From assembly GCA_042090305.1 (NCBI GenBank), contig JBELJQ010000005.1, forward strand, positions 527 to 64,526: a stretch of 64,000 bases of DNA, written 5' to 3'. The notes beneath the pieces are model-generated. The model saw only the letters and a list, made by a program, of their open reading frames with translations, had not been told where the DNA came from and did no database searches. This stretch comes from Pelagibacteraceae bacterium (GTDB lineage: Bacteria > Pseudomonadota > Alphaproteobacteria > Methylaequorales > Methylaequoraceae). The number at the start of each line of letters is the position of its first letter. Position 1 is the first letter of the stretch. Positions 24,158 through 25,792 of the stretch are shown one piece after another. The position numbers were made by a program, and so were the translations under genes.

Positions 24158-24331
24158 ATGCTAAATTTAATAAACAATTTAAGATTTGATAGACTAGAGA
24201 AATCTAGACAACATTCTTTCAAAAAAGATCTCGAGAATTATACTTCTTCTGAACTCAGTTTATCTGATTATTCTAAGTTTGATAACAAACATTTATCTTT
24301 GGATTGGATTTCTATTTACAGAAAGCAATAA
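24158..24331 (+). CDS. Putative unannotated 57-aa small protein
   Basis: Manual translation MLNLINNLRFDRLEKSRQHSFKKDLENYTSSELSLSDYSKFDNKHLSLDWISIYRKQ; the stop falls in the 5' arm of the terminator. No clear SD. Confidence 0.45.
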   Translation: MLNLINNLRFDRLEKSRQHSFKKDLENYTSSELSLSDYSKFDNKHLSLDWISIYRKQ

Positions 24332-24357
24332 AACCCTAGTAAACTAGGGTTTTATTG
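24326..24357. terminator. Bidirectional intrinsic terminator (perfect 15-bp inverted repeat)
   Basis: CAATAAAACCCTAGT-AA-ACTAGGGTTTTATTG; CCCTAG/CTAGGG stem with a U-tract on both strands. Confidence 0.85.
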
Positions 24358-24364
24358 GAGGAAA

Positions 24365-24448
24365 TTAAAATAGACTTGAAACTAGTAATAACAAAAATAT
24401 TGTTGAGAATGTAATTGCACAAAACTTTGTTATTGAAATACTAGCCAC
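24365..24448 (-). CDS. Putative leaderless 27-aa hydrophobic peptide (or ~120-nt sRNA)
   Basis: GTG at the predicted TSS; MASISITKFCAITFSTIFLLLLVSSLF; stop just before the terminator. Confidence 0.35.
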   Translation of the reverse strand: MASISITKFCAITFSTIFLLLLVSSLF

Positions 24449-24455
24449 AAATATC

Positions 24456-24484
24456 AATATATAGTAACAATTTTTAGTTGTCAA
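24456..24484 (-). promoter_or_regulatory. Near-consensus sigma70 promoter pointing away from the ufa operon
   Basis: Minus strand TTGACA (24484-24479) - 17 nt - TATATT (24461-24456). Confidence 0.6.
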
Positions 24485-24492
24485 ACAATATA

Positions 24493-24521
24493 TTGATTTT
24501 TTGTATTTAAATTTTTACATT
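24493..24521 (+). promoter_or_regulatory. Possible sigma70-type promoter for the ufaD-like operon
   Basis: TTGATT-N17-TACATT about 20 nt before the GTG start; a weak match in AT-rich DNA. Confidence 0.3.
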
Positions 24522-24541
24522 TTTTTTTTTAATATTATCTT

Positions 24542-25792
24542 GTGAGAAAATTAAAAATAGCAGTTATCGGTAGCGGCATATCAGGTTTGGCAACATCATG
24601 GATGTTATCAAAATCATGTGATGTTGAATTATATGAGAAAAATAACTACTTCGGTGGGCACGCCAATACCCAAAATGTAAAATTAGGAGATGAGAAACAA
24701 TTCAAAGTAGATACTGGCTTCATTGTCTTTAATGAAGTTAATTACCCCAATTTATGTGATTTATTTAAAAATCTAGGTGTTGAAACTTATTCAAGTGATA
24801 TGTCGTTTGCTGCATCAATAAATGATGGTAATGTTGAATATTCAGGTTCATCTTTACTAAATATCTTTGCTCAGAAAAAGAATATTTTTAATTTAAAATT
24901 CTTAAAAATGGTTTATGAAATAATAAGATTTTATAGAACCGTTGAAAAAGATGCAGCAAAATATACCGAATATACATTAAAGGACTACCTGGAAGAAAAA
25001 TGTTATTCAGAATATTTCAAATTTTATCACATTTATCCAATGGCTTCTAGCATATGGTCGTCATCTATAAATGAAATATCAAACTTCCCATTTACTCAAT
25101 TTGTAAATTTTTTTTCAAATCATGGTCTTTTAAATTTAGTAAATAGACCCAAATGGAGAACAGTTGTTGACGGTAGTCAAGCATATGTAAAAAAGATTAT
25201 AGATTCACCTAATTTAAAATCATTTAAAAATGCTAATGTGAAAGTCATTAAATGTAATAAGAATGGAGTGAATTTAACAATTAATAAAAAGCAAAAAAGA
25301 TTTGATCATGTTGTTGTTGCAGTACATTCCGATCAAGTTATAAGGCTAGTAAGTTGCTTAGGTGATAAACAAAAAAAACTTTTCAAAAAAATTAAATATT
25401 CAGTTAATAAAGTATACTTACATACTGACGATCAATTTATGCCAAAAAGAAGAAATGTGTGGGCGAGTTGGAATTATATTCAAGGTAAAGGAAATAAAAA
25501 AAAACTGTCTGTTACCTATTGGATGAATAAGTTACAAAAACTAGATACAAAAAAAAATATTTTTGTAACTTTGAATCCAGAAAAATCGCCTTTAAAAGGT
25601 AAATTAATTAAAACAGTATTATATAACCATCCATTATTTGATCTAGATACATTTAAGACTCAAAAAAAAATCAAAAAAATTCAAGGTTTGAATAAATTAT
25701 GGTTTTGCGGGGCTTATTTAGGATATGGTTTTCATGAAGACGGAATTAAATCTGGCTTATCTGTTGCAAGTAAAATTTTAGAAACAAAATAA
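24542..25792 (+). CDS. FAD-dependent oxidoreductase COG2907 (UfaD/RSP1091-like fatty acid desaturase)
   Basis: GSGISG, GGHANT, VDTGFIVFNEVNYPNL, WASWNY, VTYWMNKLQ, GAYLGYGFHEDG; followed by DUF1365 and cfa. Confidence 0.88.
   Translation: MRKLKIAVIGSGISGLATSWMLSKSCDVELYEKNNYFGGHANTQNVKLGDEKQFKVDTGFIVFNEVNYPNLCDLFKNLGVETYSSDMSFAASINDGNVEYSGSSLLNIFAQKKNIFNLKFLKMVYEIIRFYRTVEKDAAKYTEYTLKDYLEEKCYSEYFKFYHIYPMASSIWSSSINEISNFPFTQFVNFFSNHGLLNLVNRPKWRTVVDGSQAYVKKIIDSPNLKSFKNANVKVIKCNKNGVNLTINKKQKRFDHVVVAVHSDQVIRLVSCLGDKQKKLFKKIKYSVNKVYLHTDDQFMPKRRNVWASWNYIQGKGNKKKLSVTYWMNKLQKLDTKKNIFVTLNPEKSPLKGKLIKTVLYNHPLFDLDTFKTQKKIKKIQGLNKLWFCGAYLGYGFHEDGIKSGLSVASKILETK

What the first reader, a model, noticed from the sequence alone, without database searches (positions are those of the whole stretch)
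24326..24484. Self-contained hidden minus-strand unit: strong promoter, ~120-nt RNA with possible leaderless 27-aa membrane peptide, shared terminator
Seen: TTGACA-N17-TATATT on the minus strand; the predicted TSS (~24448) coincides with a GTG that opens MASISITKFCAITFSTIFLLLLVSSLF-stop. This is followed by CCTCC (anti-SD-like) and the perfect 15-bp inverted-repeat terminator. It diverges from the furan-fatty-acid operon, and its 3' end overlaps the convergent plus-strand transcript across the hairpin. Known: leaderless mRNAs, single-TM small proteins and CCUCC-bearing sRNAs are all used by alphaproteobacteria, and convergent 3'-overlap is a type I toxin-antitoxin layout. Inference: an undescribed sRNA, dual-function RNA or micro-protein regulator linked to membrane lipid remodelling.
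Basis: partly seen in the sequence, partly recalled or inferred. Interest (0 to 1): 0.62.

Follow-up and report, generated by a model that had tools for sequence, protein, structure and literature searches.

The report
Unannotated conserved membrane micro-protein gene
A 160-base unit that no annotation has called is a real, very strongly conserved gene in one family of tiny marine alphaproteobacteria: it encodes a 24-27-residue membrane peptide on an mRNA that folds over its own ribosome-binding site and carries an invariant exposed stretch whose function is unknown.

Summary
In this one genome none of it exceeds chance. There are 86 promoter matches of this quality in the genome, against about 130 in simulations. 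Conservation is what makes it real.

- **Distribution:** the unit sits at the same syntenic site in every sufficiently complete genome of the family (14 genera) and in ocean metagenomes. It was not found in about 150-200 other alphaproteobacterial families.
- **Coding:** the substitution pattern is that of a protein. Variable columns by codon position are 14/6/18, Ser switches TCN<->AGT, indels are in frame, and the frame is open in all copies.
- **Start codon:** most genera have a G-rich SD and an ATG. This genus has ATT there and an in-frame GTG at the predicted transcript start, so a leaderless mRNA is plausible here only.
- **RNA structure:** a covarying 9-bp helix locks the SD and the start codon against codons 16-19 (24-aa numbering). 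A 21-nt single-stranded tract containing the stop codon and CCUCC is invariant, even at synonymous sites. A covarying bidirectional terminator follows.

Hfq was not found in the family, and I found no conserved trans target and no antisense promoter. Verdict: a new micro-protein family with an additional, unexplained RNA-level constraint.

The parts
24496..24502 (-). A-tract AAAAAAT just upstream of the first decamer, in the position of an UP element
   Evidence: Nearly invariant in the alignments of 21 and 32 sequences. Coordinates checked.
24486..24495 (.). Perfect palindrome CAATATATTG (CTATATATAG in some genera). It abuts the -35 hexamer and lies between the two divergent promoters.
   Evidence: Conserved in all copies. 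The motif C[AT]ATATAT[AT]G is not enriched genome-wide: 22 observed against 10-22 simulated.
24479..24484 (-). -35 hexamer TTGACA (TTGAC invariant)
24455..24464 (-). Second decamer CTATATATTG, which contains the -10 hexamer TATATT (24461-24456). It starts 31 nt after the first decamer.
   Evidence: Invariant except for one A-to-G variant. The TTGAC-to-decamer spacing of 15 nt is constant in all copies.
24446..24449 (-). Predicted transcription start, 7-8 nt after the -10 hexamer. In this genus it coincides with the GTG.
   Evidence: Inferred from promoter geometry only. No RNA data could be obtained.
24365..24448 (-). Micro-ORF: GTG start, 27 aa, then TAA. The position that is ATG in other genera is ATT here (24439-24437).
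   Evidence: the frame is open in 32 of 32 unique copies, variable columns by codon position are 14/6/18, Ser switches TCN<->AGT and Leu TTR<->CTN. GRAVY is 1.9-2.1 with one charged residue. A peptide profile hits once per family genome at E about 1e-12 and nowhere in 198 other genomes of the class.
24439..24447 (-). Helix 1, 5' strand (UGGCUAGUA). It covers the SD-equivalent G-run and the first base of the homologous start codon.
   Evidence: RNAalifold. 97.5% of cells paired, against 30-52% when the partner is slid, with 3 compensatory pairs. 9 of 9 pairs in 42 and 8 of 9 pairs in 12 of 55 unique copies.
24379..24387 (-). Helix 1, 3' strand (UACUAGUUU), in codons 16-19 of the 24-aa form of the ORF (about 19-22 in this genome's 27-aa form)
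24358..24378 (-). Invariant single-stranded tract CAAGUCUAUUUUAAUUUCCUC. It holds the last three codons, the stop codon and most of CCUCC.
   Evidence: Unpaired in the MFE and consensus folds. The tract from AGTCTA to AATAAA is identical in 54 of 55 unique copies, with one synonymous CTG. All 29 complete copies from the metagenome scan that was anchored only on the promoter carry the exact 20-mer.
24326..24357 (.). Bidirectional intrinsic terminator: a 14-bp stem with an A-tract and a U-tract, shared with the convergent 57-aa gene
   Evidence: Covariation at the top of the stem: GC<->AU in 7-8 sequences and CCCUAG/CCCUGA/CCUCGG/GCUCUA variants.
24158..24331 (+). Convergent 57-aa gene (p57). 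Its stop codon lies inside the terminator stem.
   Evidence: Conserved at 38-66% aa identity at the same position in 50 of 54 loci. It is called in public data with no Pfam family and no name.
24530..24544 (+). Context: TAATAT, 6 nt, then the GTG start of the divergent ufaD-like operon, with no SD. This is probably a leaderless mRNA.
   Evidence: A TAnnnT hexamer lies at -12 to -7 of the start codon in 46 of 64 unique loci.

Best explanation
This is a genuine monocistronic gene that annotation has missed.

1. **Transcription.** A conserved sigma-70-type promoter (TTGAC[A/T]-N17-TATATT) drives a transcript of about 125 nt. The promoter is bracketed by two copies of a 10-nt near-palindrome, and an A-tract precedes the upstream copy. 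The transcript ends at a bidirectional intrinsic terminator.
2. **Product.** The RNA encodes a 23-27-residue, very hydrophobic peptide with one charged residue: M-x-x-T-K-[FIL]-C-A-...-S-S-I-F-L-L-L-L-V-S-S-L-F. It most likely inserts as a single membrane helix with the N-terminus inside.
3. **Translation control.** The extreme 5' end of the mRNA (the SD-like G-run plus the first base of the start codon) pairs with codons 16-19 in a 9-bp helix. Initiation is therefore throttled, and the 5' end is protected.
4. **Unexplained constraint.** Between that helix and the terminator lies a 21-nt exposed tract with the stop codon and CCUCC. It is held invariant at the nucleotide level, so the RNA or DNA is under a second constraint beyond coding.

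Shown: the conservation, the coding signature, both helices and the tract invariance. Inferred: the transcription start, translation, membrane insertion and any physiological role. My best guess for the role is a small membrane partner or regulator of an envelope or lipid enzyme.
For: - **Conservation and synteny.**
  - DNA matches in 24 of 24 family genomes.
  - The exact 20-mer at the locus in about 35 of 42 genomes. Any match with up to 2 mismatches was found in 9 of 9 genomes that are at least 90% complete.
  - The same gene order in 54 loci, with neighbours only 38-66% identical in protein sequence.
- **Independent sample.** A metagenome scan anchored only on the promoter found 36 units, and all 29 complete ones carry the invariant tract.
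- **Coding.**
  - Variable columns by codon position are 14/6/18.
  - Pairwise codon differences are 1819 synonymous against 1813 non-synonymous, and 210 of the synonymous ones involve at least 2 nt.
  - Ser switches TCA/TCC/TCT/AGT at one codon.
  - The frame is open in 32 of 32 copies, while three of the other five frames are stopped in all 32 and two in 6-8.
  - There is an in-frame one-codon deletion (L226).
  - In the clade that lost the ATG, all copies have an in-frame GTG.
- **Structure.**
  - MFE -33.7 kcal/mol, z = -6.3, 97.5% of cells paired, and compensatory CG->UA and GC->AU changes.
  - helix 1 is intact in 54 of 55 copies, with a mean duplex energy of -8.2 kcal/mol.
- **Peptide specificity.** The profile gives one hit per family genome at E about 1e-12. 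GRAVY is about 2.0.
Against: - There is no transcript, ribosome-profiling or peptide evidence.
- The promoter match is not beyond chance within one genome.
- In this genus the canonical ATG is replaced by ATT. The alternative GTG would sit at a base-paired 5' end, which is a poor context for initiation.
- One single-cell genome copy (L034) has no canonical start codon.
- The peptide matches no Pfam or NCBIfam family, so its function has no anchor.
- The invariance of the single-stranded tract is not explained by a pure micro-protein reading.
Confidence: 0.75

Rival explanations
1. The transcript is a dual-function RNA. Besides encoding the peptide, its exposed invariant tract (AAUUUCCUCCAAU) base-pairs with GGAGGAAAU-type ribosome-binding sites of other mRNAs, acting as an anti-SD riboregulator or SD decoy without Hfq.
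For: - The tract is single-stranded in all folds and is invariant even at synonymous sites.
- It is complementary to the conserved RBS of an aldehyde dehydrogenase gene. The match is 19 of 20 in six genomes of one genus. The predicted duplexes span 19-22 positions and reach -27.7 and -30.2 kcal/mol in two other genomes.
- In this genome that RBS ranks about 17th of 8461 GGAG-type windows.
Against: - A family-wide scan for the complement of the tract gave no more hits than the reversed control pattern. The aldehyde dehydrogenase site matched with at most 2 mismatches in only 5 of 42 genomes.
- In most genomes the complementarity is just the common GGAGGAAAT RBS.
- No Hfq was found in 42 of 42 genomes.
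- There is no Rfam sRNA match.
- CCUCC is not displayed in a loop.
Confidence: 0.17
2. It is a type I toxin-like module. A small hydrophobic toxin mRNA is kept translationally inert by SD sequestration and is countered by an RNA from the convergent strand.
For: - The peptide has the size and hydrophobicity of such toxins.
- The promoter looks strong, and the SD and start codon are locked in a helix.
- A convergent transcript shares the hairpin.
Against: - The gene is single-copy, at one fixed site, present across 14 genera and under purifying selection in streamlined 1.3-1.6 Mb genomes.
- No plus-strand promoter inside or beyond the ORF is conserved. The candidate TTGAAA-N16-TATTGT loses its -10 hexamer in relatives (alignment).
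- The overlap with the p57 mRNA is only the 32-nt self-complementary hairpin.
Confidence: 0.06
3. The unit has no gene product. The conserved block is only cis-acting DNA or RNA: an operator and promoter region for the divergent ufaD-like operon plus the terminator of the 57-aa gene. The ORF is incidental.
For: - The decamer pair and A-tract lie in the 95-bp region between the two predicted transcript starts.
- Part of the terminator is also constrained by the end of the p57 coding sequence.
Against: - The 66 nt between these elements show a clear coding pattern and an always-open frame.
- Loss of the start codon is compensated.
- Helix 1 covaries on the minus-strand RNA. A DNA operator would not require that.
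Confidence: 0.04
4. The ORF acts as a sensor whose translation overrides termination. The stop codon lies only 7 nt from the terminator stem. A ribosome that keeps pace with RNA polymerase would mask the 5' arm of the stem and allow read-through, antisense to the convergent p57/PAP2/glycosyltransferase operon.
For: - The geometry is invariant: a 7-nt linker.
- Helix 1 can form only after codons 16-19 are transcribed, so a first ribosome could load during transcription (inference).
Against: - This is purely geometric, with no read-through or antisense evidence.
- Stop codons close to or inside terminators are common in compact genomes, and p57 is an example at this same hairpin.
Confidence: 0.08

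Closest known systems
Regulatory or accessory single-pass micro-proteins of bacterial membranes, such as PmrR (29 aa, inhibits the PAP2-family lipid A enzyme LpxT in Salmonella), KdpF, CydX, AcrZ and MgrB (from my own knowledge)
   Same: The peptide is 20-50 residues long, has one hydrophobic helix and almost no charge, and is routinely missed by gene callers. Here a PAP2 phosphatase and an ArnT-like glycosyltransferase lie within 1.5 kb.
   Different: There is no sequence similarity to any Pfam or NCBIfam model. No partner is identified. The nearest of those lipid A genes lies convergent to the micro-ORF, not in an operon with it. The extreme nucleotide-level conservation of the mRNA is not a described feature of those genes.
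Type I toxin mRNAs with sequestered ribosome-binding sites, such as tisB, ibs, aapA1, and the 3'-overlapping txpA/RatA and bsrG/SR4 pairs (from my own knowledge)
   Same: It is a small hydrophobic ORF on a compact, stable, highly structured mRNA whose SD is occluded by pairing with a distal segment, with convergent transcription at the 3' end.
   Different: It is single-copy and universally conserved at one syntenic site. There is no conserved antisense promoter and no long leader that would need processing. Toxicity is untested.
Dual-function RNAs that encode small peptides, such as RNAIII/delta-haemolysin, SgrS/SgrT and SR1/SR1P (from my own knowledge)
   Same: It is a short transcript with both a translated micro-ORF and a separately conserved exposed RNA segment next to the terminator.
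   Different: No conserved target was found, and no Hfq was found in the family. The base-pairing function is hypothetical here.
Rfam RF02037, the IMES-4 RNA motif (marine environmental sequences)
   Same: There is a weak cmscan hit on the plus strand at 24308-24370: an AT-rich 13-bp hairpin followed by GGAGGAAAU.
   Different: The score is 30 bits against a gathering score of 48. The third hairpin of the model is absent, and 19 relatives gave no hit at E <= 0.01. The match is on the strand opposite to the ORF.
CCUCC-type anti-SD sRNAs of alphaproteobacteria, such as CcsR and the 'cuckoo' RNAs (from my own knowledge)
   Same: It is an alphaproteobacterial host with an exposed CCUCC in a small RNA that ends in an intrinsic terminator.
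   Different: There is a single CCUCC in a linker, not repeated CCUCCUCCC loops, and there are no tandem copies. There is no Rfam match, and the RNA is also coding.

Membership tests
Sigma-70-type promoter | -35 and -10 hexamers close to TTGACA and TATAAT, 17 +/- 1 nt apart, conserved in relatives | tested here: met
   11 of 12 matches with a 17-nt spacer. TTGAC and TATATT are invariant at constant spacing in 55 unique copies. Activity is not tested.
Intrinsic (Rho-independent) bidirectional terminator | A GC-containing stem followed by a U-run on both strands, with the stem supported by covariation | tested here: met
   A 14-bp stem with A-tract and U-tract arms. 5 of 15 pairs show compensatory changes and 97.6% of cells are paired.
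Protein-coding micro-ORF | Open frame in all relatives, third-position-biased variation, synonymous codon-family switches, in-frame indels | tested here: met
   (14/6/18; Ser TCN<->AGT; open in 32 of 32). (one-codon deletion in L226). (ATG in 41 of 55, and the ATT clade has an in-frame GTG).
Leaderless mRNA | The start codon is at the 5' terminal nucleotide of the transcript | tested here: inconclusive
   In this genus the GTG lies 7 nt after the -10 hexamer. The neighbouring operon has the same geometry. In the other genera the ATG is about 14 nt or more after the -10 hexamer with a G-run before it. No transcript start data.
Type I toxin-antitoxin system | A cis-encoded antisense RNA with its own conserved promoter that overlaps the toxin mRNA | tested here: not met
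   The only plus-strand promoter-like site in the ORF is not conserved. The overlap with the convergent mRNA is limited to the shared hairpin.
Type I toxin-antitoxin system | Overexpression of the peptide is toxic | not testable with these tools
   Needs expression in a laboratory strain.
Type I toxin-antitoxin system | Patchy, often multicopy distribution | tested here: not met
   One copy per genome at one syntenic locus across 14 genera.
Rfam RF02037 IMES-4 | Score at or above the gathering threshold, and all three hairpins present | tested here: not met
   30 bits against 48, third stem missing. No hits in 19 relatives.
Hfq-dependent trans-acting sRNA | Hfq is present in the organism | tested here: not met
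   PF17209 was not found in 42 of 42 family genomes. The control rings in E. coli and Caulobacter.
Trans-acting base-pairing sRNA (any chaperone) | Conserved complementary target sites in orthologous mRNAs | tested here: inconclusive
   No excess over the reversed control. One recurrent partial candidate, the aldehyde dehydrogenase RBS.
Known small-protein families (Pfam-A, NCBIfam) | A profile match | tested here: not met
   No family at E <= 10 in Pfam or E <= 1 in NCBIfam. No homologue among 5.8 billion protein clusters.

The most novel reading that the evidence does not exclude
The transcript of about 125 nt is bifunctional. It makes a membrane micro-protein, and its invariant exposed AAUUUCCUCCAAU tract acts without Hfq as an anti-Shine-Dalgarno riboregulator or as the docking site of an unknown RNA-binding factor. 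It would be co-controlled with the leaderless furan-fatty-acid operon through the shared palindrome pair. That would make it one of the few dedicated regulators in a streamlined genome in which an earlier follow-up note (e1-5238001, not rechecked here) reports that the usual sigma-E/ChrR control of that operon is lost.
Probability: 0.15. Interest if true: 0.75.

Novelty: new member of a known kind. Interest (0 to 1): 0.5.

Why it matters
Small membrane proteins and small-ORF mRNAs are systematically missed. This one is absent from a collection of about 15 billion predicted proteins, yet it is the most conserved stretch of its neighbourhood in a whole family of abundant, mostly uncultured marine alphaproteobacteria.

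It gives a compact, fully specified test object of 160 nt: promoter, operator-like palindromes, a helix that occludes the SD, a 24-aa peptide and an invariant RNA tract. This suits the study of how streamlined oligotrophs regulate genes with very few protein regulators.

Its fixed position may point to an unrecognised component of envelope-lipid homeostasis. It lies between a lipid A-remodelling cluster and the furan-fatty-acid operon. In Rhodobacter, as I recall it, the rpoE-chrR regulatory pair sits next to that operon.

Tried and rejected
- **Rfam.** Nothing at gathering score. The weak IMES-4 hit is rejected because it is below threshold, a hairpin is missing, and relatives give no hit.
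- **Peptide homology.** No Pfam or NCBIfam match. The word-index search found nothing (the first try failed on the length limit). Exact look-ups were negative.
- **Wider distribution.** The covariance model and the peptide profile found the unit only in its own family.
- **Regulon for the palindrome.** C[AT]ATATAT[AT]G is not enriched in the genome.
- **Trans targets.**
  - The duplex scan of the genome and the family-wide pattern scan gave no enrichment.
  - The second locus in one genus turned out to be the RBS of an aldehyde dehydrogenase.
  - The RNase E hit is internal to a coding sequence.
- **Self-pairing of CCUCC with the mRNA's own SD.** This works in a few genera (AUUGGAG) but not in most, so I rejected it as a general feature (inspection).
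- **Antisense ORF behind the plus-strand GGAGG.** It has no canonical start codon, variable length, and stops in 8 of 32 copies. Ser TCA<->AGT would read TGA<->ACT on that strand.
- **IHF-site reading of AATCAATATATTG.** It fits WATCAANNNNTTR in many copies but fails in the CTATATATAG variants, so I did not pursue it.
- **Structure prediction.** The peptide is below the tool's 30-aa minimum.
Full report
**Observation.** On the minus strand the window reads as follows.
- TTGACA (24484-24479), 17 nt, TATATT (24461-24456), then 7 nt.
- GTG (24448) opens MASISITKFCAITFSTIFLLLLVSSLF, ending at TAA (24367-24365).
- TTTCCTC follows, then a 14-bp hairpin (24357-24326).

The window is about 27-30% GC. 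In such DNA these features are not remarkable.
- Promoter-like sites are fewer than in shuffles (53 against 67.6).
- Matches of at least 11 of 12 occur 86 times in the 1.53-Mb genome, against 122-132 in Markov simulations.
- Terminator-like sites are at expectation.

**Conservation.**
- A DNA search with the 419-bp intergenic region matched all 24 sampled genomes of the same family (14 genera) and none of 16 other families of the class. The conserved core coincides with the finding's coordinates (query 204-380 = window 24326-24502).
- The order holds only this one family, with 42 species genomes. The 20-mer TTTTAATTTCCTCCAATAAA is present, unchanged, at the locus in about 35 of them. A match with up to 2 mismatches was found in all 9 genomes that are at least 90% complete.
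- Across 185,579 species genomes, the 20-mer is accompanied by the promoter and ORF only in uncultured marine alphaproteobacterial single-cell and metagenome-assembled genomes. Their record titles read 'Alphaproteobacteria bacterium AG-...', 'Rickettsiales bacterium SAT45/MED715' and 'Pelagibacteraceae bacterium TMED13'. The other hits are chance reverse complements of ribosome-binding sites in Clostridia and Bacteroidia.
- Gene order is the same in all 54 loci: glycosyltransferase (PMT_2), PAP2 phosphatase, a 104-aa protein and a 57-aa protein on one strand; then the micro-ORF convergent; then the divergent amine-oxidase/DUF1365/CMAS/MFS operon. Those proteins are only 38-66% identical, while the unit is 70-90% identical in DNA.
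- A metagenome scan anchored only on the promoter (GTTTGAC-N15-CTATATATTG) returned 36 further units. All 29 that are not cut by a contig end carry the exact 20-mer. The invariance is therefore not an artefact of how the loci were selected.
- A covariance model of the RNA and a profile of the peptide found the unit once per family genome and in none of 149 and 198 other alphaproteobacterial genomes respectively. These samples hold about one genome per family, so the correct wording is 'not found in those searched'.

**It codes for a peptide.** I took the 22 codons that align without gaps in 32 unique copies.
- Variable columns by codon position are 14, 6 and 18.
- One serine codon is TCA, TCC, TCT or AGT. 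Leucines switch between TTR and CTN.
- Pairwise codon differences are half synonymous (1819 against 1813), and 210 of the synonymous ones need at least two base changes.
- The frame is open in all 32 copies. Three of the other five frames are stopped in every copy and two in 6-8 copies.
- Length changes are in frame: a one-codon deletion in L226 and a start shifted by one codon in several copies.

The product is M-x-x-T-K-[FIL]-C-A-[IL]-[TS]-[FL]-S-S-[ITL]-F-L-L-L-L-[VI]-[SF]-S-L-F. It is 23-27 aa long, has a GRAVY of about 2.0 and one charged residue, so it is a single transmembrane helix. By the positive-inside rule the N-terminus should face the cytoplasm (inference). It matches no Pfam or NCBIfam model and has never been called as a protein.

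**Start codon and the 'leaderless' claim.**
- In 41 of 55 unique copies an ATG lies three codons downstream of this genome's GTG. It is preceded at 5-6 nt by GGG, GGA, GGAG or GGGG. With a start 7-8 nt after the -10 hexamer, the leader is only about 8-11 nt and begins with the SD.
- The clade that contains this window has ATT at that position, and every member has an in-frame GTG at the predicted +1. This looks like compensation for a lost ATG, and it is itself evidence that translation matters.
- A leaderless GUG start is plausible for this genus. The neighbouring operon has TAATAT, 6 nt, GTG and no SD. A TAnnnT hexamer sits at -12 to -7 of its start codon in 46 of 64 unique loci.
- No transcript start data could be obtained.

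**RNA structure.**
- RNAalifold on 22 diverse transcripts predicts two helices.
- Helix 1 pairs nine nucleotides at the 5' end (GGGCUAGUA: the SD-like run through the A of AUG; window 24447-24439) with UACUAGUUU in codons 16-19 (24387-24379).
- It is supported by compensatory changes (C-G to U-A in 5 sequences, G-C to A-U in 3, from at least three separate lineages). 97.5% of cells are paired, against 30-52% when the partner is slid.
- Across 55 unique copies it forms 9 of 9 pairs in 42 and 8 of 9 in 12. The one outlier was not identified. The fixed-offset count would mis-score L226, whose loop is shortened by its one-codon deletion.
- The window's RNA folds to -33.7 kcal/mol, z = -6.3.
- Helix 2 is the terminator. 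Its invariant A-tract and U-tract arms make it bidirectional, and the top of the stem covaries.

Between the helices lies CAAGUCUAUUUUAAUUUCCUC (24378-24358). It is unpaired in every fold. It is identical in 54 of 55 copies, including the synonymous positions of the last three codons. The single difference is CUA to CUG. Coding cannot explain this, because synonymous sites elsewhere in the ORF vary freely.

**What the tract might do.**
- *Trans-acting anti-SD idea.* No Hfq was found in all 42 genomes.
  - The tract is complementary to the conserved GGAGGAAAU ribosome-binding site of an aldehyde dehydrogenase. In one genus the match is 19 of 20, and in two genomes 19-22 positions pair.
  - A family-wide search for the complement gave no more hits than a reversed control.
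  - In most genomes the match is no more than a standard strong RBS.
- *Pairing with its own SD.* This is not conserved.
- *Antisense ORF or antisense promoter.* Neither is supported.
- *Geometry.* The 7-nt gap between the stop codon and the terminator means that a terminating ribosome would cover the 5' arm of the stem. Translation could therefore modulate termination and read-through into the convergent operon. This is only an idea.

The tract remains the unexplained part of the unit.

**Promoter region.** TTGAC and TATATT are invariant at constant spacing. They are embedded in two copies of C(A/T)ATATAT(A/T)G, 31 nt apart, and an A-tract precedes the upstream copy. The first copy is a perfect palindrome midway between the micro-gene's start and that of the divergent operon, about 95 bp apart. 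The motif is not enriched elsewhere in the genome. It is therefore either locus-specific operator DNA or part of an unusually constrained strong promoter.

**Comparison with known systems.**
- The unit works like the mRNAs of small hydrophobic proteins whose ribosome-binding site is sequestered, as in type I toxins. It fails that family's tests for an antisense RNA and for patchy distribution.
- It resembles accessory membrane micro-proteins such as PmrR, KdpF and CydX in size and shape only.
- It is not IMES-4: 30 bits against 48, one hairpin missing, opposite strand, and relatives negative.
- It is not a CcsR or 'cuckoo'-type RNA.

I therefore file it as a new family of a known kind, a conserved membrane micro-protein gene on a structured mRNA, with a possible second RNA-level function.

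**Context from earlier notes of this scan.** Note e1-5238001 reads the divergent operon as a furan-fatty-acid cluster that has lost its usual regulator. My Pfam scan agrees with the gene content, and PMC7380195 describes the RSP1091-1087 operon and its dependence on ChrR. That rpoE-chrR lies next to that operon in Rhodobacter is my recollection and was not checked here. Note e1-5237999 reads the upstream genes as lipid A remodelling, and Pfam PMT_2 and PAP2 agree.

Noticed in passing
window 24530-24544 (+), and the same place in 46 of 64 unique related loci: The ufaD-like amine-oxidase gene has a -10-like TAATAT/TAAAAT hexamer exactly 6 nt before its start codon and no Shine-Dalgarno sequence. 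The start codon is GTG in this genus and ATG in most others. The whole furan-fatty-acid operon is therefore probably transcribed as a leaderless mRNA. Its start lies a constant 55 nt from the anchor just before the conserved palindrome in most loci.
   Followed up: partly
window 24158-24331 (+): A 57-aa hydrophilic protein (p57) is conserved across the family at 38-66% identity. It has no Pfam family and no name in public data. Its stop codon lies inside the shared terminator stem.
   Followed up: partly
G000:C35:52769-52792 (outside the window); L132, L137, L143-L147: An aldehyde dehydrogenase gene keeps a strong GGAGGAAAT ribosome-binding site throughout the family. In some genomes this site, plus the start codon, is complementary to the micro-gene's invariant tract over 19-22 positions. 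It may be a lead for a target, or it may be coincidence.
   Followed up: partly
whole family (42 genomes): No Hfq (PF17209) is detectable in any genome of the family, including nine that are at least 90% complete. The same search finds it in Caulobacter and E. coli.
   Followed up: yes
L123 = G045:C34:16400-16921: One genome of another genus carries a second copy of the unit at a contig end. It is of the type seen in this window's genus (GTG...ATT). This is most likely a mis-binned contig rather than a paralogue.
   Followed up: no
window 24308-24370 (+): There is a weak resemblance to the Rfam IMES-4 motif: an AT-rich hairpin followed by GGAGGAAAU. It is below threshold and absent in relatives.
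   Followed up: yes
L034 (single-cell genome AG-337-K15): This copy has no canonical start codon (AGT GTA ATA ATA GCA) and a Ser-to-Pro change. It is either a sequencing error or a decaying copy.
   Followed up: no
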